Part shown: positions 1-12,083 of the stretch, one piece after another
How the letters are laid out: each line of letters begins with the position of its first letter
Numbering within the stretch: position 1 is the first letter of the stretch
Notes under the pieces: model-generated
Databases searched by the model: none
Told to the model about the DNA's origin: nothing
Seen by the model: the letters and a program-made list of their open reading frames with translations, nothing else
Translations under genes and position numbers: made by a program
Source of the DNA: Candidatus Saccharimonadota bacterium
Lineage (GTDB): Archaea > Nanobdellota > Nanobdellia > Pacearchaeales > GW2011-AR1
Reading direction: 5' to 3'
Length of the DNA: 15,663 nucleotides
Assembly: GCA_017609205.1 (NCBI GenBank)
Contig: JAFCEL010000002.1
Location: 1 to 15,663 of the forward strand

Positions 1-963
1 TCATCTGATTTCTGGGATGGTTTAAATTCTCCGAGCGATATTTATATTGGAAATTTAACAGATGATAATACATATGTAAGAGTTGATGGAGATAATATGA
101 CAGGTAATTTAACATTGGCAAATGACCCAAGTGATTTATTTCAAGCAGCAACAAAAGGTTATGTAGATATGGCTGTTGCTTCTCTTGGCTCAAGATATTA
201 CATGATTAATGATTCTTCTGGTATTGCTGATTATAAATTAACACAAACTACTGCATCTTCTGGAGCAGAGCAATCATTTAATAAATCAAATCTAGTAGAT
301 GGTGATTACATCATGGGTTGGATTTCACCAAATCCAAATGAACCAGGCACCTTGATTAAAGGAGTATATAGTTGGAATCTTTATGCTGAAAAAACAAGTG
401 GAACAAAGGAGTTAAGGTTATATTGGAAATTAATAGAGAGACTATCAAATGGAACAGAAATTGTAATAGGAACATCTGTTAATAGTAATGAGGTGTTAAA
501 TTCCAAAAATTCTTTTATAATCCCAATTATTTTATCAGATGACTATGCTTTGTCTAATGGTTCTTATGTTGTAGGTAAAATATATGCTTCTGTTGCTGGT
601 GGTGGCAGTGCTCCAAGTGTAGAATTATATTATGGAGGAGATTCTGATTCATATTGGGAAATCCCAACTAATTTGGAAGTATTATCAAGTCAATTTGTAA
701 ATTTAGATGGTGATACTATGACTGGAGCATTAAATGTTTCTAACATTAATACTAATAATTATGGTAACTTATCAATTGACGATGGAACCGTTTTTATTGA
801 TTCTTCAACTGATAGGATTGGAATAGGAACAACTACACCAAATGCTAAGTTGGATATTGTAGGAGAGGGGGGCGCTTTACTTAGTGTTACCCGATTAACG
901 ACTGGCAGCACATATTTTTATATTAATGGTTCTACAGGTCGGCAAGTCCGAGTCGGGCTTTAG
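1..963 (+). CDS. Tail-fibre-like fibrous surface protein (adhesin-like), 5'-truncated by the window edge; probably continues into 981..1412 across a frame break
   Basis: Frame 1 is open from nt 1 (no stop in the 32 codons before the ATG at 97), so the gene starts upstream of the window. It has two copies of the tail-fibre-type motif: 'VDGDNMTGNLTL...AATKGYVD' and 'LDGDTMTGALNV'. It also has the 'IGIGTTTPNAKLDIVG' motif typical of phage tail-fibre / endosialidase-chaperone-type fibrous proteins. Ends at TAG 961-963. Confidence 0.75.
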   Translation, partial: SSDFWDGLNSPSDIYIGNLTDDNTYVRVDGDNMTGNLTLANDPSDLFQAATKGYVDMAVASLGSRYYMINDSSGIADYKLTQTTASSGAEQSFNKSNLVDGDYIMGWISPNPNEPGTLIKGVYSWNLYAEKTSGTKELRLYWKLIERLSNGTEIVIGTSVNSNEVLNSKNSFIIPIILSDDYALSNGSYVVGKIYASVAGGGSAPSVELYYGGDSDSYWEIPTNLEVLSSQFVNLDGDTMTGALNVSNINTNNYGNLSIDDGTVFIDSSTDRIGIGTTTPNAKLDIVGEGGALLSVTRLTTGSTYFYINGSTGRQVRVGL

Positions 964-980
964 ATGTTGAAGGTGATTTT

Positions 981-1412
981 ATGGCTGTAAATTTATATCC
1001 GCAAGGTGGTATTAGATTCACTAACATAGCAGACCCTTCAATTTATAATGCTAATTCAGGGGCAGGAACAAATTTGAAAATTTATGGCGGAGGAGCTGAT
1101 GATTCATATTTATCACTTTATTCCGTAAGTTCTAGTCCAGCCAGCAAGTATGGCACGAGCGATTATATCAATTTCCATGTGGGCAATACAGCCGGCACCG
1201 CTCAAATTGAAGCCATGCGAATCGTTAATGGCGGCAATGTTGGTATAGGAACAACCACTCCTCTTGCTAAGTTGGATGTATCAAATTCAACACAGGGTTT
1301 AATCTTTAATCCGACTGGTGGTTCAGGAGATAGTCCAATTATAAATACAACTGGCTCTACAAATGTTACAATTACAAGCAGTGGTGGCTCTGTAATTATA
1401 CAGTTAGGTTAA
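981..1412 (+). CDS. Tail-fibre-like protein, C-terminal fragment or tip domain (frame is open upstream to 927)
   Basis: Carries a second 'VGIGTTTPLAKLDVSNS' motif, with DNA similarity between 817-855 and 1239-1277. The same frame upstream of the ATG reads 'SASPSRALDVEGDF', a third copy-like motif. Gly/Ser/Thr/Asn-rich composition. Locally higher GC than the rest of the window. Confidence 0.65.
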   Translation: MAVNLYPQGGIRFTNIADPSIYNANSGAGTNLKIYGGGADDSYLSLYSVSSSPASKYGTSDYINFHVGNTAGTAQIEAMRIVNGGNVGIGTTTPLAKLDVSNSTQGLIFNPTGGSGDSPIINTTGSTNVTITSSGGSVIIQLG

Positions 1413-1455: not shown

Positions 1456-1722
1456 ATGAGAAGAGATGGAAACAGGAACCAAATCTTGACGATTGTTTTG
1501 ATTGTTCTTTTAGCTCTTGCTGTTGGTTATATTGCTTTTGAGAAGATTTCTTTATGGAATCGGGTAAATCAGTTAGGAAACTTTCAGCAAGGAGCTCAGT
1601 ATGGATATCAGCAGGCAATTGTTGAGATAGCGCAGAAAGCAGAAGCATGTCAGCAAGTCCCTTTAGTAATAGGGAATAAGACCGTTAATGTTTTTGCTAT
1701 TAAATGTTTACAACAAAAATAA
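1456..1722 (+). CDS. Small single-pass membrane protein (88 aa), function unknown
   Basis: Strong SD. N-terminal basic stretch 'MRRDGNRN' followed by the hydrophobic helix 'ILTIVLIVLLALAVGYIAF'. Q-rich ectodomain with two Cys (possible disulfide). Stop lies 7 nt before the next start. Confidence 0.65.
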   Translation: MRRDGNRNQILTIVLIVLLALAVGYIAFEKISLWNRVNQLGNFQQGAQYGYQQAIVEIAQKAEACQQVPLVIGNKTVNVFAIKCLQQK

Positions 1723-1729
1723 TCTTAAA

Positions 1730-3058
1730 ATGGAGAATAAAAAGAAGTTTCTTTTAGTTATTTCTTTAGTATTAATCTTTTATTCAATTTTGCTTGTTTC
1801 TCCGATTGGAAGTGAAAATTATAATACTTCTGTGGCAATATCTTCAGGAGGAGGTAACATAAGTTCAGATAATCAGTCTCAGATTATTGTTGTTGGGCTA
1901 ATAAGTGGAAATGCTTCTTCAGGGAATTATAGCACTCATTTAGGTTTTTTGCAGGGTTCGTCAGATTTACTCCCCCCACGAGTTACAATCGTTAATCCTT
2001 TAGAAGCGACTTATGGTGTGAACTCTGTAAGTATTCAAATAAATCTTAATGAAGCTGGTTATTGCGAATATAGCCTTGACGCAGGAGTTACTAACCATAC
2101 TCTAACTGCTGATGCATCTAATTTGGTTTTTACTGGAACTTTGTCAGGACTTTCAAATGGAAATTATATTCTTAATGCGTATTGTAATGATAGTAGTGGG
2201 AATAAGAATTATACAGAAAGTGTTTCATTTACAATTAGTGTAGCGTCATCAACACCTTCTACAACATCTTCTGGCGGAGGGGGTGGTGGAGGCGGGGGTG
2301 TTGCAGAGTCTTTAGGGTTTTCTGTTAATCCTGAATCATATTCTAAAACAATTGTCTTGAATAGAACAGATTATGGGGGGATATTTATTACTAATGAGGA
2401 AAGTGTAGAGCGTGCTTATGATATTAACATAGAAGTTCTTGAAGGTATTTTGATTTTTGACAAAACTTCAGTTACTATTCCTCCTGGAAAAACAAAAAAC
2501 GTTGGGTTTAGAATTTATGCTCCTAGCAATCCTGGAATTTATACAGGAAAGATAATTGTAACTGCAGGATCTAAAAAAGCAGAGGTTCTTGTTACAATTA
2601 ATGTTAGAACTGAAAAGAGTTTGTATGATGTTCTTTTATCAATTCCCAAATCAATGAGGACTCTGCTTATTGGAAGGACGCTGAAGGCACAGGTGGATTT
2701 ATTGCAAATGGGTCTTAAGGAGAAAATGGATGTTGTTATAAAATATTTTATTAAAGGTTTCGATGGCAAGATTTATCTCTCTGAATCTGAAACAATAATG
2801 GTTTATGAGAAAAAATCTTTTGAAAGGGAGTTTCATACCCAGGATATTGCACCTGGAGATTATATTCTTGGAGTAGAGGTTATTTATCCTAGTGGTGTTG
2901 CAGTTGCGAGTTCTCAATTTAAGATAGTAGAAAAGTTGGGGGTTTTTAGATGCAATTTTTTTCTTATAATTTTATCTATAAGCCTGATAGCTCTTTTATT
3001 ATTTTTCTGGTTAATAATCAAAAGATATAAAAAAATAAGATTGCATAGACATAAATAA
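1730..3058 (+). CDS. Membrane-anchored surface protein with Ig/beta-sandwich-like domains, Gly9 linker and C-terminal TM anchor (paralog of 3062..4261)
   Basis: I prefer the ATG at 1730 ('MENKKKFLLVISLVLIFYSILLVS', signal-peptide-like) over 1688, which overlaps the upstream ORF. There is a 'SSGGGGGGGGGV' linker. The C-terminal hydrophobic helix 'FFLIILSISLIALLLFFWLII' is followed by the basic 'KRYKKIRLHRHK'. The two C-terminal domains align with the next gene. Confidence 0.8.
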   Translation: MENKKKFLLVISLVLIFYSILLVSPIGSENYNTSVAISSGGGNISSDNQSQIIVVGLISGNASSGNYSTHLGFLQGSSDLLPPRVTIVNPLEATYGVNSVSIQINLNEAGYCEYSLDAGVTNHTLTADASNLVFTGTLSGLSNGNYILNAYCNDSSGNKNYTESVSFTISVASSTPSTTSSGGGGGGGGGVAESLGFSVNPESYSKTIVLNRTDYGGIFITNEESVERAYDINIEVLEGILIFDKTSVTIPPGKTKNVGFRIYAPSNPGIYTGKIIVTAGSKKAEVLVTINVRTEKSLYDVLLSIPKSMRTLLIGRTLKAQVDLLQMGLKEKMDVVIKYFIKGFDGKIYLSESETIMVYEKKSFEREFHTQDIAPGDYILGVEVIYPSGVAVASSQFKIVEKLGVFRCNFFLIILSISLIALLLFFWLIIKRYKKIRLHRHK

Positions 3059-3061
3059 AAG

Positions 3062-4261
3062 ATGGTGTTAAAAAGGAGATTCTGGATAATAGGGCTTCTA
3101 ATTGCAGTAGCAATAGCAGTATTTTGTTTTTTTATAAATTCCGGACTTATAGGAAGGCAAGATTCTTATGAAAATGGTTTTGAAGTCAAACAGTTATTGT
3201 TAAGAGAAAATATCCTAGTTGGAGGAGGGGGTAGCAGTATAATTACTATAAAAAATTTAGAAAAAGATAGTCAGACTTTTAAGATAGGATTGTTTAATTT
3301 AGAGGGTATTGCTTCAGTTGAAGAGAGTCAATTCGTAGTTGGTTCGGGAGAGGAAAAAAAAGTTGCTATTTTGTTTAAGGATATTAAAAATAAAATTGAT
3401 GTTTATGTGGGAAGTATTGTTATTGAAGGGAATAAAGCCGTTAAGAAAATACCTGTTGTGGTTGGAGTAGAAAAGGAGAGCCCTTCTTTCACGATTATCC
3501 AAGAACCAATGCCAGCTTATGGTGAGGTTTATCCTGGTGGGAAATTAGGAATGGAAATAAAGATATTTAATTTAAAAGATTATGAAGAACACAAAGTTAA
3601 AATAAACTATTTCTTAAAAGATTTTAATGGAAATGTTCTAATGCCTGATGAAGAAAATAGGGTTGTGGGAGAGAGAACGTCTATTACAAAAATAATCAAT
3701 CTTCCTGAGGATATTGGGTATGGAAAGTATGTTTTTGTCACTCTTATAGATAATGAGAATATAGGGAGTTATATTTTTGATATAACTAAAAAAGATAAAA
3801 AGGTCTTCGACACTACAGAGTATCTTGTTTTAATTGTTTTAGTTTTTGTTATAGGGGTTTTTTTGATAATTTTCTATTTCTTTAGAGAAAGGGATAAATT
3901 CTTAATTGAGTTAAACAAACAACAGAATAGAGAAGTCAGAGAAAATCTTTCTGTTCTTAGGAAGTATAAAAAAGAAATTAATAAGATTAGGGATATAGAA
4001 GAGAAAAAACAAAAATTAAGGGCTCTTGAAAAAAATAGAAAAGAAATTCTTGCAAAAATAAAAAGAAAGCAGAAAATTCAGAAGAATGAATTATCTAAAT
4101 TAATAAGGGAGAATAAATTAAAGGAGGCTAAGAGAAAACTTGATTTATGGAAAAAAGAAGGATACAATTTTTCAGAGATTCATAGAGGGTTAAAAGGTTT
4201 ATCTAAGACAGATATACTGAATAAGATGAGACAATGGAAAAGACAAGGGTATAAGTTTTAA
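3062..4261 (+). CDS. Bitopic surface protein: N-terminal signal anchor, two beta-sandwich-like ectodomains, TM helix, 125-aa basic coiled-coil cytoplasmic tail
   Basis: Start is 3 nt after the upstream stop. N-terminal helix 'FWIIGLLIAVAIAVFCFFI'. The ectodomain is paralogous to the previous gene: 'KVKINYFLKDFNGNVLMPDEE..PEDIGYGKYVFV' versus 'DVVIKYFIKGFDGKIYLSESE..QDIAPGDYILGV'. TM helix 'YLVLIVLVFVIGVFLIIFYFF'. The K/R/E-rich tail (3884-4258) ends with the duplicated 'WKKEGYNF' / 'WKRQGYKF'. Confidence 0.8.
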   Translation: MVLKRRFWIIGLLIAVAIAVFCFFINSGLIGRQDSYENGFEVKQLLLRENILVGGGGSSIITIKNLEKDSQTFKIGLFNLEGIASVEESQFVVGSGEEKKVAILFKDIKNKIDVYVGSIVIEGNKAVKKIPVVVGVEKESPSFTIIQEPMPAYGEVYPGGKLGMEIKIFNLKDYEEHKVKINYFLKDFNGNVLMPDEENRVVGERTSITKIINLPEDIGYGKYVFVTLIDNENIGSYIFDITKKDKKVFDTTEYLVLIVLVFVIGVFLIIFYFFRERDKFLIELNKQQNREVRENLSVLRKYKKEINKIRDIEEKKQKLRALEKNRKEILAKIKRKQKIQKNELSKLIRENKLKEAKRKLDLWKKEGYNFSEIHRGLKGLSKTDILNKMRQWKRQGYKF

Positions 4262-4266
4262 TAATC

Positions 4267-4276
4267 TTTATAAAAA
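4267..4276 (+). promoter_or_regulatory. TATA-box-like element (TTTATAAAAA) upstream of the coiled-coil gene
   Basis: Centred about 24 nt upstream of the ATG at 4295 with no SD. This is consistent with an archaeal leaderless or short-leader promoter. Confidence 0.35.
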
Positions 4277-4294
4277 CAGTTGACATTAATTAAA

Positions 4295-5743
4295 ATGGTA
4301 AGGAAGAAACTAGAAGAAGGGGTGAGTAAGAAGGATTTTGCAAAGATTGAGTCAAAGATTCAAAGATTAAAACAGCTCGAGGATGAGTTGAATCTTCTTA
4401 ATCCTCAGGGATTTCCAGTTGAGGTTGCTTCTATACGTTCTAAGATAAAGAATGTTGCTAAAGTATCTGAAGTTGAAAGAGAGATGCGTGCTTTAAAGAG
4501 AAAAATAAATCTTCGACGAAAGAAAGAAGAAAAAGATGCAGGTAAGTTCTCTGATGTTAAAGAGAAATTAGATGATTTAGGGGAAGATGTTGAGAGCATA
4601 AAGAGTTCTCAGAAGAGAACTATCATTATAAGAAAAAAATTACAGGATTTGGAGAAAGATATTGAGGATGTGAAAGAATCTCAGGAAAAGGATCATCTTA
4701 TTAGAAAAAAACTAGAAGATATAGAGAATAATATTAGAGAGTTAGAAGAGTCTAGTTCAGAGATAAGTGATGTAAAGAGCGATCTATCTCGGATTAGGAG
4801 TGTTTTGTTGGACTTAAAAGAATCTCAAGAAAAAAAAGAAAAAGAGAAGAAGGCAAAGAGGTTGAAGATTGATAGGGGAGTTAGTGCAGTTGTCGAGGCA
4901 GATTTTAATGAATTTTTAACAGATATTGAATTGTCTCTTTCTGATAGATTGAAAAAGAGAGAAGAGGAGATTAATAATTTCTTGAAAAAGGATTTGATAA
5001 AGAGGAATAAAGAGTTCAAACAAAAACAAATTGATTTAGTTAAACAGTATGAGAGAGAGAAGAAGCGATTGGAGAAGAGGCTTAATAAACAATATGCAGA
5101 AGAAGTTCAGAAAAGATTGCATAAAGAGGTTAATGAGAGGTTTGGCAGTCTTTTGAATAAAAGTGTTGAAACAGAAAAAAGGAAATTAGAAGCAAAATAC
5201 AGAAAAGAATTAGCTTTACATTTAAAGGAGGAGCTTGAGAAAAGAAAAGAGTTGTTAAGACAGCGTATGCGAAGGGAGTTTGAAAATAAATTGAAAAAGC
5301 TTGAGAAAGAAAGAATATTAGAAAGAGAGGAGATTGAAGCAAGAGAAAGGAAGAAATTAGAGGAATTGAAAAAATTAGAGAAAGAAGAGCTTGAAAAGAA
5401 GAAGGAAGAGGTTGAGCTAGAAGAGAAGAAGAAATTAGAAGAATTGAAAAAAGCAAAACAGGCGCTTGAGAAGAAAAAGAGAGAACTTGAAGCAAAAGAG
5501 AAGAAGAAATTAGAAGAATTGAAAAAAGCAAAACAAGAGCTTGAAATTCAGAGAGAAAAAATAAAAGAAGGAATTAAAGAAGATTTAGTTAAACAGTTTA
5601 ATCAAATTCTCGAGAGGGAAGTTGCAAGGAAGGTTAATAAGATTAAAGTGAATATGAGAAAAGAGTTTAAGGAGAAATATGATAATAAACTAAAAAAGCA
5701 TGAAGCAGAATTGCATAAAAGATTGAAGCAACTTTTAAGTTAA
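4295..5743 (+). CDS. Long K/E-rich coiled-coil protein (about 482 aa), soluble, with internal tandem repeats
   Basis: Continuous ORF with extreme Lys/Glu/Arg/Leu heptad-like composition and no hydrophobic segment. I prefer the ATG at 4295 ('MVRKKLEEG') over the TTG at 4280. Repeated 'ESQEK..IRKKLxDxE' units and 25/26-aa 'KKLEELKKAKQxLE' repeats. Confidence 0.8.
   Translation: MVRKKLEEGVSKKDFAKIESKIQRLKQLEDELNLLNPQGFPVEVASIRSKIKNVAKVSEVEREMRALKRKINLRRKKEEKDAGKFSDVKEKLDDLGEDVESIKSSQKRTIIIRKKLQDLEKDIEDVKESQEKDHLIRKKLEDIENNIRELEESSSEISDVKSDLSRIRSVLLDLKESQEKKEKEKKAKRLKIDRGVSAVVEADFNEFLTDIELSLSDRLKKREEEINNFLKKDLIKRNKEFKQKQIDLVKQYEREKKRLEKRLNKQYAEEVQKRLHKEVNERFGSLLNKSVETEKRKLEAKYRKELALHLKEELEKRKELLRQRMRREFENKLKKLEKERILEREEIEARERKKLEELKKLEKEELEKKKEEVELEEKKKLEELKKAKQALEKKKRELEAKEKKKLEELKKAKQELEIQREKIKEGIKEDLVKQFNQILEREVARKVNKIKVNMRKEFKEKYDNKLKKHEAELHKRLKQLLS
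5343..5570 (+). repeat. Intragenic tandem repeat (units of 78/75/75 nt) including two identical 40-mers
   Basis: 5421-5460 and 5496-5535 are the identical 40-mer 'aagagaagaagaaattagaagaattgaaaaaagcaaaaca', 75 nt apart. A diverged copy ('gaaattagaggaattgaaaaaa') lies 78 nt upstream. The units encode the 'EKKKLEELKKAKQ' repeats. Confidence 0.85.
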
Positions 5744-5858: not shown

Positions 5859-7745
5859 ATGTCTGTAAAACAATCTTATAACGCAGAATCAATTAGGGTA
5901 CTTGAAGGTCTGGAAGGTGTAAGAAAGAGACCTGCAATGTATATTGGATCAACAGGAAGAGAAGGTTTGCATCATATGGTTTATGAAGTTGTTGATAACT
6001 CTGTCGACGAGGCTCTGGCAGGTTTTTGCAAGAAGATAATTGTTAAAATTAATGAGGATGGTTCGGTTAGTGTTGAAGATGATGGGCGTGGAATTCCTGT
6101 TGATATTCATGCTCAGTTGAAAATCCCTGCTGTTCAGGTTGCTTTAACAAAACTTCATGCAGGAGGAAAATTTGATAAAAAATCTTACCAGATTTCAGGA
6201 GGTTTGCATGGTGTCGGAGTCTCTTGCGTTAATGCTTTGTCAAAAAAGTTAATCGTTGAAATTAGGAAAGATGGGAAGATTTATTCTCAAGAATATTCAA
6301 GGGGAAAAGTGAAGAGTAAGCTAAAAGTTATTGGGAAGTATAATGGTGGTTCAAGTGGGACAAAAATAACTTTCTGGCCTGATGGGGATATTTTCTCTAC
6401 GACAGTTTTTGATGCGAAACACTTAGAAACCCGGTTTAGAGAAATCGCTTTTCTTAATGCGGGGTTAAGGATAATCCTTATTGACGAGATAAAGAAACAA
6501 ACAAGTGAATTTTATTACTCTGGAGGATTAATTGAATTTGTAAAATGGATAAATAAATCCAAGGATGTTTTGCATAAGCCTATTTATTTTAAAAGAGAAA
6601 CAAATGGAACGATTGTAGAAATTGCTTTGCAGTATAATACAGGTTATCGAGAGAATATTTTTGGTTTTGTCAATACAATTAATACTGTCGAGGGTGGAAC
6701 GCATATTTCAGGTTTTAAAAGTGCTTTGACGAGAGTGATAAATGATTATGCTAAAAAGAAATGTAATCTAAAAAATGGGTCTCTCAGTGGAGATGATGCT
6801 CGTGAAGGATTAACAGCTATTGTTAGTATTAAACTTGCAGAGCCTCAATTCGAGGGACAAACAAAGACAAAGCTTGGAAATTCAGATATAAAAGGTTTTG
6901 TCGATTCTATTGTTACTTCTGTTTTAGCTGAATTCTTCGAGGAGAATCCGTCTGTTGCTAAAAAAATTGTTACTAAGGCCATGGATTCTGCAAAGGCACG
7001 ACTTGCTGCTAAAAAAGCAAAGGATTTGGTAAGACGGAAAAATGCTTTTTCAGTTGGAGGGTTACCTGGAAAATTGCATGATTGCTCAAGCAAAAAATCT
7101 GATAATACTGAGTTGTATATTGTTGAGGGGGAGAGTGCTGGGGGTTCTGCAAAAAATGCACGGGATAAGAACACTCAAGCTATTTTGCCTTTGAAAGGTA
7201 AGATACTTAATGTTGAGAAATCCAATCCTGCGAGAGCGCTTTCAAGCGAGGAAATTACAAATATGATTACTGCAATTGGAACTGGTGTTGGTGACCAGTT
7301 TGATATTAAAAAACTGAGATATGGCAAAGTAATTATAATGACTGATGCTGATGTTGATGGAGAGCATATAAAAACGCTTCTTTTAACATTCTTTTTTAGG
7401 TTTATGCCTGATTTAATCAAGGAAGGAAAAGTTTATGCTGCGATGCCTCCATTGTATAGAATTAGAAATAGAAAGGATTATTATGTTTATTCTGACGAAG
7501 AGTTAAAGAAAGCAGTAGGGAAACTTGGTGCTGGAAATGTTACGAGGTTTAAGGGTTTGGGAGAGATGAGTCTTCAGCAATTGTGGGAAACTACAATGAA
7601 TCCAAAGACAAGGAGAATTAAGAGAATTTTTATTGAGGATGCTCTTGAAGCTGATAGGGTTTTTTCAATGTTAATGGGCGATGACGTTCAAGCTAGGAAG
7701 GAATTTATACAAGAGAATGCTAAACAGGCGGAATTAGATGTTTAA
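5859..7745 (+). CDS. gyrB: DNA gyrase subunit B
   Basis: Full set of GHKL ATPase and Toprim motifs: 'HHMVYEVVDNSVDEA', 'EDDGRGIP', 'GLHGVG', 'QTKTKLGN', 'EGESAGGSA', 'PLKGKILNVEK', 'IMTDADVDGEHI'. At 628 aa it is the short form without the large enterobacterial insert. Confidence 0.97.
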   Translation: MSVKQSYNAESIRVLEGLEGVRKRPAMYIGSTGREGLHHMVYEVVDNSVDEALAGFCKKIIVKINEDGSVSVEDDGRGIPVDIHAQLKIPAVQVALTKLHAGGKFDKKSYQISGGLHGVGVSCVNALSKKLIVEIRKDGKIYSQEYSRGKVKSKLKVIGKYNGGSSGTKITFWPDGDIFSTTVFDAKHLETRFREIAFLNAGLRIILIDEIKKQTSEFYYSGGLIEFVKWINKSKDVLHKPIYFKRETNGTIVEIALQYNTGYRENIFGFVNTINTVEGGTHISGFKSALTRVINDYAKKKCNLKNGSLSGDDAREGLTAIVSIKLAEPQFEGQTKTKLGNSDIKGFVDSIVTSVLAEFFEENPSVAKKIVTKAMDSAKARLAAKKAKDLVRRKNAFSVGGLPGKLHDCSSKKSDNTELYIVEGESAGGSAKNARDKNTQAILPLKGKILNVEKSNPARALSSEEITNMITAIGTGVGDQFDIKKLRYGKVIIMTDADVDGEHIKTLLLTFFFRFMPDLIKEGKVYAAMPPLYRIRNRKDYYVYSDEELKKAVGKLGAGNVTRFKGLGEMSLQQLWETTMNPKTRRIKRIFIEDALEADRVFSMLMGDDVQARKEFIQENAKQAELDV

Positions 7746-8037
7746 GATGGCAAAGAAGTCAAGAGTTCAAACACCTGCGTGGATACTTGAAGGATATGAC
7801 TCTAGAGAGGAATATGAAAAAGCAAAAGGTAAGATAAGCAATAAGAAATCAGGAAAAACCTTTAAAATCAGAAGATGTCCTGATTGTAACAGCGACGAAG
7901 TTAGAGTCGTAGTCGGAGAAGAATCTAAAGGGCTTTGGGAATGCAGTAAATGTAATTGGAGAGGAAAGAATATTAAAGAAGAGGAATTAAATGAAGAAGA
8001 ATTCCTTAGGTATTTGGATAAAAAAGAAGGAAATTAA
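7738..8037 (+). CDS. Small zinc-ribbon protein (96-99 aa) embedded between gyrB and gyrA
   Basis: The ORF fills the whole gyrB-gyrA gap. The ATG at 7738 overlaps the gyrB stop by 8 nt; the alternative ATG at 7747 is 1 nt after it. Its stop lies 5 nt before the gyrA start. The 'CPDC..(18)..CSKC' four-Cys ribbon is at 7876-7953, flanked by charged regions. Confidence 0.7.
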
Positions 8038-8042
8038 ATAAG

Positions 8043-10493
8043 ATGACACCCAAGAAAGAAAATATTGAAGAGCAGAAGTCAGAAAAAGGAGTTTTTGATG
8101 CAGAGGTCTCTTCTGAAATGAAGAAATCTTATTTAGATTATGCTATGAGTGTTATTGTATCGAGGGCAATTCCTGCAATTGAGGATGGGTTAAAGCCTGT
8201 TCAGAGGAGAATTCTTTATGCAATGAATCAAATGGGGCTTAAGCCTGGAACACAGACAAAAAAATCTGCTCGTGTTGTAGGAGATGTCATTGGTAAATAT
8301 CATCCTCATGGCGATACTGCTGTTTATGATGCAATGGTTCGGCTTGCACAGGATTTTTCAATGAGATATCCTATTGTTTTTGGTCAAGGTAATTTTGGTT
8401 CAATTGATGGTGACCCTCCTGCAGCTATGCGTTATACAGAAGCACGACTTATGCCTATTGCTCTTGAACTCCTTCAAGATATTGAAAAAGAGACTGTTAA
8501 TTTTATTCCAAATTATGATGGGTCTTTAAAAGAACCTGAATTGCTTCCTGGGAAATTACCTGCTCTGATTTTGAATGGTGCTACGGGTATTGCAGTGGGT
8601 ATGGCTACTAATATTCCGCCCCATAATCTAGTCGAGGTTTGTAATGCCATTGTTTCTTATATTAAAAATCCGAATTTAAATTTTGAGGAATTAGTAGAAA
8701 TAATTCATGGTCCTGATTTTCCAACAGGGGGCTCTGTTACAGGTGATATGCTGGAGTTATATAAGACTGGAAAAGGAAAACTTGTTTTGAGAGGAAAGGT
8801 AAGCAATGAGACCATAAAAAAGAAAGATGCAATTGTTATAACAGAAATTCCTTATATGGTTAATAAATCAACTCTTGTTCAGCAGATTGCGGATCTTATT
8901 CAAAAGAAAAAGATAAGGGATGTTTCTGATTTAAGAGACGAATCTTCTAAGGGAAAGATTAGAATTGTTCTTGAATTGAGGAAAGGGGCAAACCCTAAAT
9001 TTATTATTAATTCTCTCTATAAGTATACACGACTTCAGGATGCCTTTCACGTCAATTTTCTTGCTCTTTCCGACGGGCAGCCTAAGATTATGAATCTTAA
9101 AGAGGTGTTAGAGGCATATGTGAGTTATAGAAAGAAGATTGTTACAAAAAGAACAAAGTATGAGCTGAGAAAAGCAGAGGAAAGGCAGGAAATAGTTAAT
9201 GGGCTTTTGATTGCTCTAAAAAATATAGATGCAGTTATTAGTCTTATAAAAAAATCTAAAGGAAAGGCAGAAGCATTAGGAGAACTTGTTAAGAAATTCA
9301 AACTTACGAGGAGACAGGCAGAAGCGGTTCTTGAAACAAAATTACAGCAGTTAACTTCAATGGAAGTTGATAAATTAAAAAAGGAAGCAGAGAATCTTAA
9401 GAAGAAAATTTCAGAGTATGAAAGAATTTTGGGTGATATTAATGAGGTTTTAAAAATTATCATTAAAGAAGTTACTGATTTGAAAAATAAGTACGGAGAC
9501 AGTCGAAGGACAACAATCTTAAAGAGTATTAAGGAGATTAAAGAAAAAGATTTAGTGCAGGATAAAGAGGTTGTTGTAACTATTACAGATAAGGGATATT
9601 GTAAAAGGATGGATCTTCAGTCTTATAGGGAGCAGAAGAGAGGCGGCAAAGGAGTTATTGGAAGTGGTTTAGCTACAGGGGATTTTGTAAAACAATTGAT
9701 TACATGTTCAACTCATGATTATCTGATGTTTTTTACGACGAGAGGAAGGGTCTTGTGGCTAAAGACATATGAGATTCCTTCTGCAGAGAGATATAGCAGG
9801 GGGAAGGCTATTGTTAATATGTTAAATTTAAAGGACGAGAATATCACAAAGGTTATCTCTATTAAAAAATTTGATAATTCTCTTTTTATGGCAACTAAGA
9901 AGGGAATTGTTAAGAAGATTTCTTTAAAACATTTTTCAAAACCTCGGGCATCTGGAATAAAGGCGTTGAATCTTCCGAATGATAATTCTGATTTCTTGAT
10001 TGGTGTGGAAATTGTAAAAGAAAACAGTGAAGTTCTTCTTGCTACTAAGAAAGGGCAGGCAATTAGATTTAGTAGTAGTGATGTCCGGGAGATGGGACGG
10101 GCAAGTTATGGTGTTACAGGAATAAAATTGAATAAGGATGATGAAGTTGTTAGTCTTGAAGTTTTAGAAACCGACGCTATCTTAACAATTACGAGAAAAG
10201 GTTATGGAAAGAGGACTTCTGTTGAAGACTATAGAAAAACTGCTCGTGCTGGAAAAGGAGTTATTAATTTGAAAGTCTCTGAGAAAACCGGAGAAGTTGT
10301 CACAACTGTTTCAGTGAATGATAATGACGGGGTTATAATTACAACAGCAAAGGGGATTGTTATGAGAACTTCACTTCAAAATATAAGAATAATGGGGCGT
10401 GCTACACAAGGAGTAAGAATTGTTAAACTCCAGCAAGGAGATTTTGTTACTGATTTAGTAAAGATTCCTGAGAATAACATTAATGGGAAATAG
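8043..10493 (+). CDS. gyrA: DNA gyrase subunit A
   Basis: '[29 protein letters not shown]', 'YHPHGD', and the catalytic-Tyr motif '[10 protein letters not shown]'. A GyrA-box 'QKRGGKG' at the start of the beta-pinwheel C-terminal domain argues for gyrase rather than topo IV. 816 aa. Confidence 0.97.
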
Positions 10494-11194: not shown

Positions 11195-11238
11195 TTGGTA
11201 ATATAAAAATTTGTATCTCTGGATAGATATATTACCAA
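11195..11238. repeat. Perfect 11-bp inverted repeat (ttggtaatata / tatattaccaa) with a 22-nt spacer
   Basis: 11195-11205 'ttggtaatata' is the exact reverse complement of 11228-11238 'tatattaccaa'. The right arm covers the nuclease stop codon (11232-11234). The left arm overlaps the TATA-like box of the downstream gene. Confidence 0.7.
11200..11210 (-). promoter_or_regulatory. TATA-box-like element (minus strand TTTTTATAT) upstream of the 216-aa ORF
   Basis: The minus strand reads 'acaaaTTTTTATATtaccaa'. The box is centred about 26 nt upstream of the ATG at 11179, i.e. leaderless geometry. It lies inside the 11195-11238 inverted repeat. Confidence 0.35.
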
Positions 11239-12083
11239 ATATCTAATAATTCTTCTTTTGAGATATCTTCTTCGCCATTAAGTTTTATTTGTTTTTCTTT
11301 TTTTGGGGAAGTTCCTCCAAATTCAGGACAAAAATCCTTATATTCACACCAGTCGCATAAGATGGATTTTTGTGGAGGAAATTCTTCTGTTTCTTCTATT
11401 TTTTTAATGAGTTCGAGAGTTTCTTCTTTTAGTTGCTGAAGTTGTTCATTTGTTCGACGAGAGTAAATCTTTAAGTTGTGTGCGAGATAATGCCATATCA
11501 GGCAGATATTTTTATCATGCCCAAAAATTTCCTTTACTGCTATTGAATAAAGTGCGAGTTGCCTGTCTTTTTCTATTTTTTCTTTTAGGGGCATTGAATT
11601 TGATGTTTTGTAGTCGTGAATTTCATACTCATTAGTTGCTTTGTTATAAACGAGTCTGTCTATAAATCCTTGTATTTTATATTCGCCTTCGGGGTCAAGG
11701 TCAAGCAATATTTTCTTCTCAACTTCTAATGTATTTTCATCAAAAGGATGGTTTTTTGTATAATAATTTAAGATAAATTGGACGCCTTTGTTGAAATAAT
11801 CTCTTTCTGTGAGATCTTCTTTAACAATTACTGTCTCTGGTTTTATTGTGTTTTCCCAATATTTTGTGTAGAATAATATTACCTCGTCAATTTCAGGAAT
11901 TTTCTTTTTGCTTATCTCCTTATAAAGCCATTCAAGTGTTGCATGAACTGTGCTTCCAAGATGGGACTCTATTGATTGTGTTTCAGGAGGGATTTTCTCA
12001 ATATAACGGAGTTTAAATTTATAGGGACATTGTTCAAATGTAGAAATCCGAGAATGTGAATATATCTTTGGTTTCTTTTTCAT
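11232..12083 (-). CDS. PD-(D/E)XK nuclease of the Cas4/AddB (RecB-family) type with a 4Fe-4S cluster cysteine signature
   Basis: N-terminal 'SHSRISTFEQCPYKFKLRY' (Cys19). Catalytic 'GFIDRL' (D142) and 'EIHDYKT' (D157, K159). 'QLALY' QxxxY motif. C-terminal 'CDWCEYKDFC' gives the pattern C-Xn-C-X2-C-X5-C. 283 aa. Confidence 0.85.
   Translation of the reverse strand: MKKKPKIYSHSRISTFEQCPYKFKLRYIEKIPPETQSIESHLGSTVHATLEWLYKEISKKKIPEIDEVILFYTKYWENTIKPETVIVKEDLTERDYFNKGVQFILNYYTKNHPFDENTLEVEKKILLDLDPEGEYKIQGFIDRLVYNKATNEYEIHDYKTSNSMPLKEKIEKDRQLALYSIAVKEIFGHDKNICLIWHYLAHNLKIYSRRTNEQLQQLKEETLELIKKIEETEEFPPQKSILCDWCEYKDFCPEFGGTSPKKEKQIKLNGEEDISKEELLDIW

What the first reader, a model, noticed from the sequence alone, without database searches (positions are those of the whole stretch)
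7738..8037. Small four-Cys zinc-ribbon gene wedged inside the gyrB-gyrA operon with translational-coupling geometry
Seen directly: a 96-99 aa ORF exactly fills the gyrB-gyrA gap. Its start overlaps or abuts the gyrB stop ('gATGtTTAAgATGg') and its stop lies 5 nt before the gyrA ATG. It encodes a CPDC-x18-CSKC ribbon flanked by highly charged segments.

Established knowledge: E. coli YacG is a small zinc-finger protein that binds GyrB and inhibits gyrase.

Inference: stoichiometric co-expression with both gyrase subunits suggests a dedicated gyrase partner. It could be a regulator, an assembly factor, or a DNA- or subunit-bridging module. Such a partner would be undescribed for archaeal gyrases.
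Basis: partly seen in the sequence, partly recalled or inferred. Interest (0 to 1): 0.7.

Follow-up and report, generated by a model that had tools for sequence, protein, structure and literature searches.

The report
Zinc-ribbon gene inside archaeal gyrase operon
A small zinc-binding protein gene sits between the two DNA gyrase genes here and in every sampled relative among about 185 related species of tiny (DPANN) archaea, which points to an undescribed partner of the enzyme, though no function or binding has been tested.

Summary
The layout is gyrB (5859-7745), a 96/99-aa four-Cys ORF (7747 or 7738 to 8037) and gyrA (8043-10493), with 1-nt and 5-nt spacers.

The ORF is a real gene under purifying selection. 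It founds an unannotated family with no Pfam, NCBIfam or PDB membership. The family is narrow: 81 cluster representatives among 1.84 billion proteins.

A genome scan found relatives in 185 species, labelled Pacearchaeota, Woesearchaeota or Nanoarchaeota. In the 80 loci retrieved, the order is always gyrB, ribbon gene, gyrA. This holds even though unrelated genes (NUDIX, HD, cytidylyltransferase and others) are variably inserted on either side. Five loci chosen through GyrB alone also carry it. A sister clade has a shorter form in the same slot. Sixteen more distant gyrB-gyrA pairs lack it.

It is not a YacG homologue (hhalign probability 3.9%). The protein is bipolar: a basic N-terminal half with an invariant TPxWI motif, a Zn ribbon, and an acidic C-terminal helix. 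A second small acidic protein often follows it and is once fused to it.

Best reading (about 0.55): a lineage-specific, gyrase-dedicated small partner. Physical binding, and whether it helps or inhibits, remain untested.

The parts
5859..7745 (+). gyrB (DNA gyrase subunit B, 628 aa)
   Evidence: ORF. Pfam HATPase_c, DNA_gyraseB (2.6e-60), Toprim and DNA_gyraseB_C.
7747..8037 (+). Zinc-ribbon gene (96 aa from ATG 7747; alternative ATG 7738 gives 99 aa and overlaps gyrB by 8 nt)
   Evidence: Homologues start MAKK. 80 homologues with E<=5e-20. Median dN/dS 0.24.
7771..7803 (+). N-terminal conserved motif [11 protein letters not shown] (family consensus [11 protein letters not shown]; T, P, W, I and G invariant)
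   Evidence: Invariant columns T12 P13 W15 I16 G19. Present in 87 of 90 distinct family members. Absent from the short forms of the sister clade.
7843..7875 (+). Basic linker and first strand: [11 protein letters not shown]
   Evidence: K36, K37, K40, F42, K43 and R45 are nearly invariant. The region N-terminal to the ribbon has median net charge +7.
7876..7887 (+). Zinc knuckle 1, CPDC (Cys47/Cys50 in 99-aa numbering)
   Evidence: Read directly. C47, P48 and C50 invariant. Kept in 90 of 90 sequences.
7942..7953 (+). Zinc knuckle 2, CSKC (Cys69/Cys72), preceded by invariant Trp67
   Evidence: The spacer between knuckles is 16-25 residues across the family.
7978..8025 (+). Acidic C-terminal segment [16 protein letters not shown] (family consensus ELTEDEFMKYLDEKGEE), predicted helix 86-97
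   Evidence: E86 is invariant; E83, L84, E88, Y92 and L93 are nearly invariant. AF2 predicts helix H86-97. Median net charge C-terminal to the ribbon is -5.
8043..10493 (+). gyrA (DNA gyrase subunit A, 816 aa, GyrA-box present)
   Evidence: ORF. Pfam DNA_topoisoIV (2.1e-160) and six DNA_gyraseA_C stretches. 'QKRGGKG' visible in the translation.

Best explanation
The ORF encodes a founding member of an unannotated, lineage-specific family of small bipolar zinc-ribbon proteins. The family is a fixed resident of the gyrB-gyrA operon of Pacearchaeota-type DPANN archaea.

Shown: it is a real gene under purifying selection. It is placed so tightly between gyrB and gyrA that co-transcription, and probably translational coupling, follow. 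Its distribution matches one gyrase clade.

Inferred: it is a gyrase-dedicated small partner made together with both subunits. The proposed mechanism has three parts:
- The Zn ribbon, with the conserved TPxWI and W-x-C surfaces, docks on the enzyme. A weak evolutionary-distance signal points to GyrB (Toprim/ATPase).
- The lysine-rich N-terminal half contacts DNA.
- The acidic C-terminal helix engages a basic DNA-binding surface of gyrase. In about a fifth of relatives an extra acidic partner protein would add to this.
Together these would tune DNA binding or wrapping.

Constant co-production with an essential enzyme argues more for an auxiliary or regulatory subunit than for a plain inhibitor. 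The sign of the effect is unknown.
For: - Geometry: the spacers are 1 nt and 5 nt in the window. Across 92 loci the median spacer is 1 nt on both sides, and 76-80% are within 10 nt.
- Conservation: 80 homologues at 42-76% identity, with 13 invariant columns including the four Cys. Median dN/dS is 0.24, falling to 0.09-0.13 in two of the closest pairs (L010-L018, L018-L033).
- Synteny: 185 species genomes carry a relative. In the 80 retrieved loci, gyrB is upstream on the same strand in 79; in the 80th the gene lies about 60 nt from the contig start. gyrA is downstream in 72. Six more are cut by the contig end, and two lack gyrA within 5 kb.
- Persistence: unrelated genes are variably inserted on either side, up to 10 genes in L168, yet this gene is always kept.
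- Ribbon-blind sampling through GyrB: 5 of 5 loci carry it. So does L084, found through GyrA.
- Sister clade: short forms without the N-terminal motif occupy the same slot. Their GyrB/GyrA are about 60-65% identical to the window's.
- Outgroup: 16 more distant gyrB-gyrA pairs less than 250 nt apart have no such gene.
- Family breadth: only 81 representatives among 1.84 billion proteins.
- Charge: N-terminal part +7, C-terminal part -5.
- Exploratory mirror-tree: ribbon-protein distances track GyrB Toprim (partial r 0.24, 0/300 permutations) and GHKL (0.23, 1/300) better than the GyrA domains.
Against: - There is no direct evidence of binding. No multimer model could be run.
- The AF2 monomer is only moderately confident (pLDDT 69). 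It matches only generic zinc ribbons.
- In this clade the gyrB-gyrA gap is an insertion hotspot for plainly unrelated housekeeping genes. Operon membership is therefore not proof of shared function.
- No fusion to GyrA or GyrB exists among the hits.
- GyrB and GyrA of the carrier clade show no large clade-specific insertion that could mark a docking site.
- Most loci were ascertained through the ribbon gene itself. The blind sample is small.
- All data come from metagenome assemblies of uncultured organisms.
- The mirror-tree signal is weak and confounded by phylogeny.
Confidence: 0.55

Rival explanations
1. It is a YacG-like reversible inhibitor or protector of gyrase (an analogue, not a homologue). 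The small Zn domain plus acidic aromatic tail would occupy the DNA-binding region at the GyrB Toprim/GyrA interface and keep idle enzyme off DNA.
For: The architecture is analogous: a small Zn-binding domain followed by an acidic tail with aromatic residues. According to PMC10886550, the YacG zinc finger contacts GyrB with a critical Trp insertion, and its C-terminal region spans GyrB and GyrA. The ribbon protein has invariant Trp residues. The weak distance correlation with GyrB Toprim fits. An extra, very acidic partner protein could act as a DNA mimic.
Against: There is no sequence relationship to YacG. YacG is stress-induced (PMC10886550) and, from my own knowledge, is encoded away from gyrA and gyrB. 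This gene is locked into the operon at a position implying constant, roughly equimolar synthesis, which is costly for an inhibitor of an essential enzyme. The basic N-terminal half looks like a DNA-binding element rather than a DNA competitor.
Confidence: 0.17
2. It is an unrelated housekeeping zinc-ribbon protein, for example an RNA-, ribosome- or RNA-polymerase-associated factor of the Elf1 / TFS / eL43 type. It would merely be fixed in a compact multi-purpose operon.
For: The gap between gyrB and gyrA carries many unrelated genes. The operon often follows L7Ae-S28e-L24e. There are weak sub-threshold ribbon similarities to Elf1 (11/35 members in Pfam, 13/35 in NCBIfam), eL43 and TFS. Some JGI annotations read 'Elf1' or 'RNA polymerase subunit M'.
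Against: All those hits are far below curated cut-offs, for example 20 bits against 87-109. hhalign against human ELOF1 gives 3% probability. Other inserted genes come and go, while this one is constant. It stays between gyrB and gyrA even across 4.4 kb of insertions (L168), and stays next to gyrB when gyrA is not nearby (L008, L019, L169). Its distribution coincides with one gyrase clade, whereas a general translation or transcription factor would be expected more widely. Its near-neutral pI (median 7.6) and acidic tail are unlike ribosomal proteins.
Confidence: 0.17
3. It is a DNA-binding autoregulator of the gyrBA operon: a small zinc-ribbon transcription factor that senses supercoiling or binds the operon's promoter.
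For: The N-terminal half is basic and joined to a Zn ribbon. Regulators are often encoded within the operon they control. Gyrase expression is supercoiling-sensitive in bacteria (established knowledge).
Against: A position in the middle of the operon with coupling-type junctions implies levels similar to the enzyme, which is unusual for a repressor. No helix-turn-helix or known archaeal transcription-factor domain is present. No conserved operator was looked for or seen. The upstream region of gyrB is not conserved between the window and its relatives.
Confidence: 0.08
4. It is a chance ORF or annotation artefact in an AT-rich spacer.
For: The ORF is short, low-complexity and K/E-rich, in a genome of about 33% G+C.
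Against: 80 homologues with E<=5e-20. The four Cys are kept in 90 of 90 sequences. Mean pN is 0.25 against pS 0.67. AF2 predicts a zinc-ribbon fold. There is no Rfam hit.
Confidence: 0.01

Closest known systems
YacG (E. coli; Pfam PF03884), endogenous zinc-finger inhibitor of DNA gyrase
   Same: Both are small (65 aa against 96 aa) four-Cys zinc proteins with an acidic C-terminal region bearing aromatic residues. Both are linked to gyrase: YacG biochemically and structurally (PDB 4TMA, reviewed in PMC10886550), this protein by gene position. The weak distance correlation with the GyrB Toprim domain points to the region where YacG binds.
   Different: There is no detectable homology (no PF03884 hit in 35 members; hhalign probability 3.9%). 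Here the fold is a classical two-knuckle ribbon with a 16-25 residue spacer. YacG occurs in many proteobacteria and is stress-induced (PMC10886550); it is encoded apart from gyrA and gyrB (my own knowledge). This family is archaeal (DPANN), sits inside the gyrBA operon, and has a long basic N-terminal half with a [11 protein letters not shown] motif that YacG lacks.
Generic archaeal/eukaryotic zinc ribbons: Elf1 (PF05129), eL43/L37ae, TFS/RpoM C-ribbon, IS1595 transposase ribbon (PF12760), Lar
   Same: They share the CPxC...CxxC ribbon with a strand before knuckle 1. Elf1 also has a basic N-terminus and an acidic C-terminus. Sub-threshold profile hits exist.
   Different: All scores are well below the families' curated cut-offs. 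The flanking conserved motifs ([11 protein letters not shown], ELTEDEFMKYLDEKGEE) are absent from those families. hhalign against human ELOF1 gives 3%. The genomic context is gyrase, not the ribosome, RNA polymerase or a transposase.
Zinc-ribbon DNA-binding modules of type IA topoisomerases (topo I C-terminal zf-C4, PF01396; reverse gyrase zinc fingers)
   Same: The concept is the same: zinc ribbons serving as accessory DNA- or partner-binding modules of a topoisomerase (established knowledge; PMC3553957 for reverse gyrase).
   Different: Those ribbons are covalent domains of type IA enzymes. Here the ribbon is a separate polypeptide next to a type IIA enzyme. No PF01396 hit was seen, and no fusion to GyrA or GyrB exists among the hits.
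Three-subunit type IIA topoisomerase of phage T4 (gp39/gp60/gp52)
   Same: It is a precedent for a small third polypeptide encoded with the two large subunits of a type IIA topoisomerase (my own knowledge).
   Different: gp60 is a split-off piece of the GyrB-like subunit. Here GyrB (628 aa) and GyrA (816 aa) are complete by Pfam domain content, and the ribbon protein is an addition, not a fragment.

Membership tests
YacG (PF03884) | Sequence or profile match to the YacG zinc-finger family | tested here: not met
   No PF03884 hit for the window protein or any of 35 members. YacG chains (e.g. 4TMA) are not among the PDB sequence hits at E<=10.
YacG (PF03884) | Binds GyrB and inhibits supercoiling by blocking DNA binding | not testable with these tools
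   This needs biochemistry or multimer modelling.
Elf1 (PF05129 / NF011482) | Score above the curated cut-off of the Elf1 models | tested here: not met
   The best Pfam E-value is 9.1e-5, in 11 of 35 members. NCBIfam NF011482 scores 15.3 bits against a cut-off of 109 for the window protein. hhalign against human ELOF1 gives 3% probability. No Elf1 chain appears among the PDB hits.
Ribosomal protein eL43 (L37ae) | Score above the curated cut-off; basic ribosomal-protein character | tested here: not met
   NF003058 scores 20.3 bits against a cut-off of 87. The best PDB match is E=0.035, over the ribbon only. The family has a median pI of 7.6 and an acidic C-terminus.
Topoisomerase IA zinc ribbon (zf-C4_Topoisom, PF01396) | Profile match to PF01396 | tested here: not met
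   Not among the Pfam families hit by any of 35 members at E<=0.01.
Proposed new family: gyrase-operon zinc-ribbon protein of Pacearchaeota-type archaea | CxxC-x16-25-CxxC ribbon with invariant W two residues before Cys3, basic N-terminal part, acidic C-terminal helix ELxExEF..Y | tested here: met
   The window protein has all of these features. 90 of 90 distinct members keep the ribbon. Median charges are +7 and -5.
Proposed new family: gyrase-operon zinc-ribbon protein of Pacearchaeota-type archaea | Encoded between gyrB and gyrA on the same strand | tested here: met
   Met in the window, in the 80 genome loci, in L001-L002, in L084, in the short forms L163-L166, in the GyrB-ascertained loci L168-L172 and in L173.
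Gyrase accessory subunit (functional class) | Physical association with GyrA and/or GyrB and an effect on activity | not testable with these tools
   Only indirect evidence is available: synteny, junction geometry, distribution, and a weak mirror-tree signal towards GyrB.

The most novel reading that the evidence does not exclude
The gyrase of Pacearchaeota-type DPANN archaea is a three-component enzyme. The zinc-ribbon protein would be an obligate, stoichiometric third subunit, joined in some lineages by the small acidic protein that is sometimes fused to it. It would supply in trans a DNA-binding ribbon and an acidic regulatory tail, and would be needed for normal supercoiling or for coupling gyrase to another machine. 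This would be the first accessory subunit described for any archaeal gyrase.
Probability: 0.25. Interest if true: 0.8.

Novelty: new variant of a known kind. Interest (0 to 1): 0.62.

Why it matters
Gyrase is regarded as a two-subunit A2B2 enzyme. The known protein modulators reviewed in PMC10886550 (YacG, GyrI, MurI, pentapeptide-repeat proteins, toxins) are bacterial or plasmid-borne, and the examples I know are encoded away from the gyrase genes.

Here a small protein has been kept inside the gyrBA operon across an entire archaeal lineage with very reduced genomes. In such genomes, dispensable genes are expected to be lost. The obvious candidate explanation is a dedicated partner.

If it binds gyrase, three things follow:
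- It would show how a horizontally acquired bacterial-type gyrase was adapted in DPANN archaea.
- It would add a new, non-homologous solution to gyrase control.
- It would give a simple recombinant system (three small genes) for testing that control.

It also defines a new protein family, plus a second acidic one, for annotating several hundred metagenome-derived proteins now labelled 'hypothetical' or mislabelled Elf1, TFIIS or transposase-like.

Tried and rejected
- Homology to known families. I checked Pfam, NCBIfam and PDB sequences, for single proteins and for all 35 members. Only sub-threshold generic ribbon hits appeared. YacG and Elf1 were rejected by hhalign.
- Structure. The AF2 monomer has pLDDT 69. 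Foldseek against the PDB gave nothing below E=1e-3, only generic ribbons such as Rpb2 and RPA70.
- Gyrase fusions. A profile search of 1.84 billion representatives found none. The longest hit (432 aa) is a tandem-ribbon protein, probably unrelated.
- Interface modelling. I tried a GyrB(395-628)-GyrA(1-525)-linker-ribbon chimera with 7 paired sequences. It would in any case have returned only pLDDT.
- Clade-specific indels or specificity positions in GyrB and GyrA, carriers against non-carriers. There are no large insertions, and the differences are scattered. This is uninformative.
- Converse test through a metagenome scan with the GyrA N-terminus. It returned mostly distant gyrases, so it served as an outgroup rather than a within-clade sample. 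I replaced it with five GyrB-ascertained look-ups.
- The weakest relative, P0145 (65 aa), is not gyrase-linked. I treat it as outside the family.
- The acidic companion protein gave no Pfam or PDB match. A weak ZPR1 hit (E=0.029) is considered noise.
- There is no Rfam family in the window.
Full report
**The observation**

The window is AT-rich archaeal DNA at about 33% G+C. It carries eIF2-gamma and ribosomal protein S6e. On the + strand it holds three genes:
- gyrB at 5859..7745 (628 aa)
- a 99-aa ORF at 7738..8037
- gyrA at 8043..10493 (816 aa)

Pfam confirms a complete GyrB and a complete GyrA with six CTD blades. A GyrA-box (QKRGGKG) is visible in the translation, so this is a gyrase.

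An ATG at 7738 overlaps gyrB by 8 nt, and a second ATG at 7747 lies 1 nt after the gyrB stop. The ORF's stop is 5 nt before the gyrA ATG. The protein contains CPDC-x18-CSKC. Homologues almost all begin MAKK, so 7747 (96 aa) is the likely start.

**It is a real, conserved gene**

A search of 5.8 billion proteins returned 80 homologues, all with E<=5e-20 and 42-76% identical. Where named, they are 'hypothetical protein, Candidatus Pacearchaeota'.

An alignment of 35 members shows 13 invariant columns: T12 P13 W15 I16 G19 C47 P48 C50 W67 C69 C72 G76 E86. It also shows three conserved blocks:
- an N-terminal [11 protein letters not shown]...Y.KAKG
- a basic KK.GKTFKIR strand leading into the ribbon
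- an acidic C-terminal ELTEDEFMKYLDEKGEE

Across 90 distinct sequences, all keep CxxC-x16-25-CxxC. The part before the ribbon has median net charge +7, and the part after it -5.

Nei-Gojobori estimates give mean pN 0.25 against pS 0.67. Median dN/dS is 0.24 over 2046 pairs with dS<2, and 0.09-0.13 in two of the closest pairs (L010-L018, L018-L033). dS is near saturation, so these values are rough, but purifying selection is clear.

AF2 predicts two short N-terminal helices, a four-stranded ribbon and a C-terminal helix, with pLDDT 69.

**It belongs to no described family**

Pfam, NCBIfam and PDB sequence searches give only sub-threshold generic zinc-ribbon similarities: IS1595, Elf1, eL43, TFS and Lar. 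Foldseek against the PDB finds nothing below E=1e-3.

Profile comparison with E. coli YacG gives 3.9% probability, and with human ELOF1 3%.

A profile search of 1.84 billion cluster representatives finds only 81 hits at E<=1e-3. None is fused to a gyrase subunit.

**Genomic context is the key result**

A scan of one genome per species (185,579 species) found relatives in 185 stretches. The 80 best were retrieved. In these loci:
- gyrB lies upstream on the same strand in 79 of 80. In the remaining locus the gene is about 60 nt from the contig start.
- gyrA lies downstream in 72.
- Six more are cut by the contig end.
- Only L008 and L019 lack gyrA within 5 kb.

The spacing is variable because other genes are inserted on either side. 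These include DUF1653, a cytidylyltransferase/cupin, NUDIX, HD, PNPOx-like and tRNA_bind proteins, among others.

So in this clade the gyrB-gyrA gap is an insertion hotspot. Operon residence by itself is therefore weak evidence of shared function. What matters is that these other genes come and go while the ribbon gene is constant.

Junctions remain tight throughout. Median spacers are 1 nt, and 76-80% are within 10 nt.

Because those loci were found through the ribbon gene itself, I also sampled blind. Five GyrB homologues at 77-79% identity were chosen only for contig length. All five have the ribbon gene downstream, although one of them is the same contig as L021. In L168 it persists among ten genes inserted between gyrB and gyrA. 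In L169 it stays one gene after gyrB although gyrA is not within 4.5 kb.

A locus found through GyrA (L084) has the order gyrB, ribbon gene, acidic gene, gyrA.

Shorter relatives lack the N-terminal motif (P0113, P0164). They come from a sister clade whose GyrB and GyrA are about 60-65% identical to the window's. They occupy the same slot. P0186 (L165/L166), from the main clade (GyrB/GyrA about 75-77% identical), has a truncated N-terminal motif (TPDWILKGEK) and occupies the same slot.

As an outgroup, 16 more distant gyrB-gyrA pairs less than 250 nt apart have no such gene. Their GyrA is about 43-61% identical to the window's.

Carriers have GyrB 67-84% and GyrA 62-78% identical to the window. 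The family is thus coextensive with one archaeal gyrase lineage.

**A second player**

In 18 of the 80 genome loci, and in L001, L084 and L168, a very acidic protein of 55-114 aa directly follows the ribbon gene. Its core motif is EVEVxEFSL...EIxEWIxKL...FEIDDENELxINYEE. In P0096 it is fused to the ribbon protein's C-terminus. It has no Pfam or PDB match, and it is absent from the window.

**Mechanism**

Three things are shown:
- The gene is real and under selection.
- Its geometry implies co-transcription, and probably translational coupling, with both gyrase genes.
- It has strict long-term linkage to one gyrase clade.

What is inferred is a gyrase-dedicated partner. The bipolar design suggests a basic arm on DNA and an acidic helix on a basic surface of the enzyme.

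An exploratory mirror-tree analysis of 38 loci shows that ribbon-protein distances track the GyrB Toprim and GHKL domains. The partial correlations are 0.24 and 0.23, reached by 0/300 and 1/300 permutations. They track the GyrA domains less well. This is a weak hint only, confounded by phylogeny.

Carriers and non-carriers show no large indels in GyrB or GyrA that would mark a docking site.

Constant operonic co-production with an essential enzyme argues for an auxiliary or regulatory subunit rather than a simple inhibitor. A YacG-like protective inhibitor, an unrelated housekeeping ribbon protein, and an operon autoregulator all remain possible.

**Literature**

The archaeal gyrase survey (PMC9348778) reports gyrase in most Pacearchaeota and Woesearchaeota, and gyrBA operons. 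It does not contain the words 'zinc' or 'intergenic', and the operon and synteny passages shown do not mention an intervening gene.

The review of gyrase-binding proteins (PMC10886550) mentions archaea only once, in a general remark on toxin-antitoxin systems, and not for any gyrase partner. It describes YacG as occurring in many proteobacteria. No paper combining Pacearchaeota and gyrase mentions this gene.

**Verdict**

This is a new small-protein family with unusually strong gyrase linkage. It is not a YacG relative, and its function is still inferred.

Noticed in passing
L032:5379-5576, L084:~3020-3220, L001:6512-6706, L168:~10064-10225; fused form P0096: A second small, very acidic protein family directly follows the ribbon gene in about a fifth of relatives. 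Its core motif is EVEVxEFSLxxxEIxEWIxKLxxLKxxKxxIxFEIDDENELxINYEE. It is fused to the ribbon protein in P0096 (178 aa). It has no Pfam or PDB match and is absent from the window.
   Followed up: partly
L003-L082 and L168 (between gyrB and gyrA): In this clade the gyrB-gyrA gap is an insertion hotspot for unrelated small genes. These include DUF1653, a cytidylyltransferase+cupin, NUDIX, HD, PNPOx-like, tRNA_bind, HIT, HAD, ACT and deoxyribosyltransferase-like proteins. L168 has up to ten genes (about 4.4 kb) inserted.
   Followed up: partly
e.g. L014, L026, L029, L043, L045, L053 (gyrB >1000 aa); L043, L054, L058, L063, L082, L168 (gyrA about 1200 aa): Many relatives have much longer gyrB and/or gyrA ORFs, consistent with inteins. 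Intein_splicing is annotated in the L168 GyrA and in GyrB hits P0284 and P0346. The window's genes are intein-free.
   Followed up: no
L001, L163-L165, L169-L173 upstream of gyrB; window 1688-5743: Relatives share a conserved upstream block, Kae1/TsaD - L7Ae - S28e - L24e - gyrB. The window instead has predicted secreted or membrane proteins and a 487-aa K/E-rich coiled-coil ORF (4280..5743, internally repetitive) upstream of gyrB. This indicates a rearrangement at that point.
   Followed up: no
window 11232-12083 (- strand); also L002, L170, L172, L173: A Cas4-like PD-(D/E)XK nuclease (PDDEXK_1, 4.7e-35) recurs on the opposite strand downstream of gyrA in several relatives. In the window one gene separates it from gyrA. 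It is a second conserved neighbour of the gyrase operon.
   Followed up: no
window 97-963 and 981-1412 (+ strand): Two adjacent ORFs with no Pfam match share a 'GIGTTTPxAKLD[IV]' motif near the C-terminal part. They may be paralogous surface or fibre-like proteins.
   Followed up: no
window 7738-7746: The annotated 'MFKM' N-terminal extension of the ribbon protein (also in P0006 and P0038) arises from an ATG embedded in the last gyrB codons (...tta gat gtt taa). It is probably not the true start. The database entry P0001 (99 aa) is likely 3 residues too long.
   Followed up: yes
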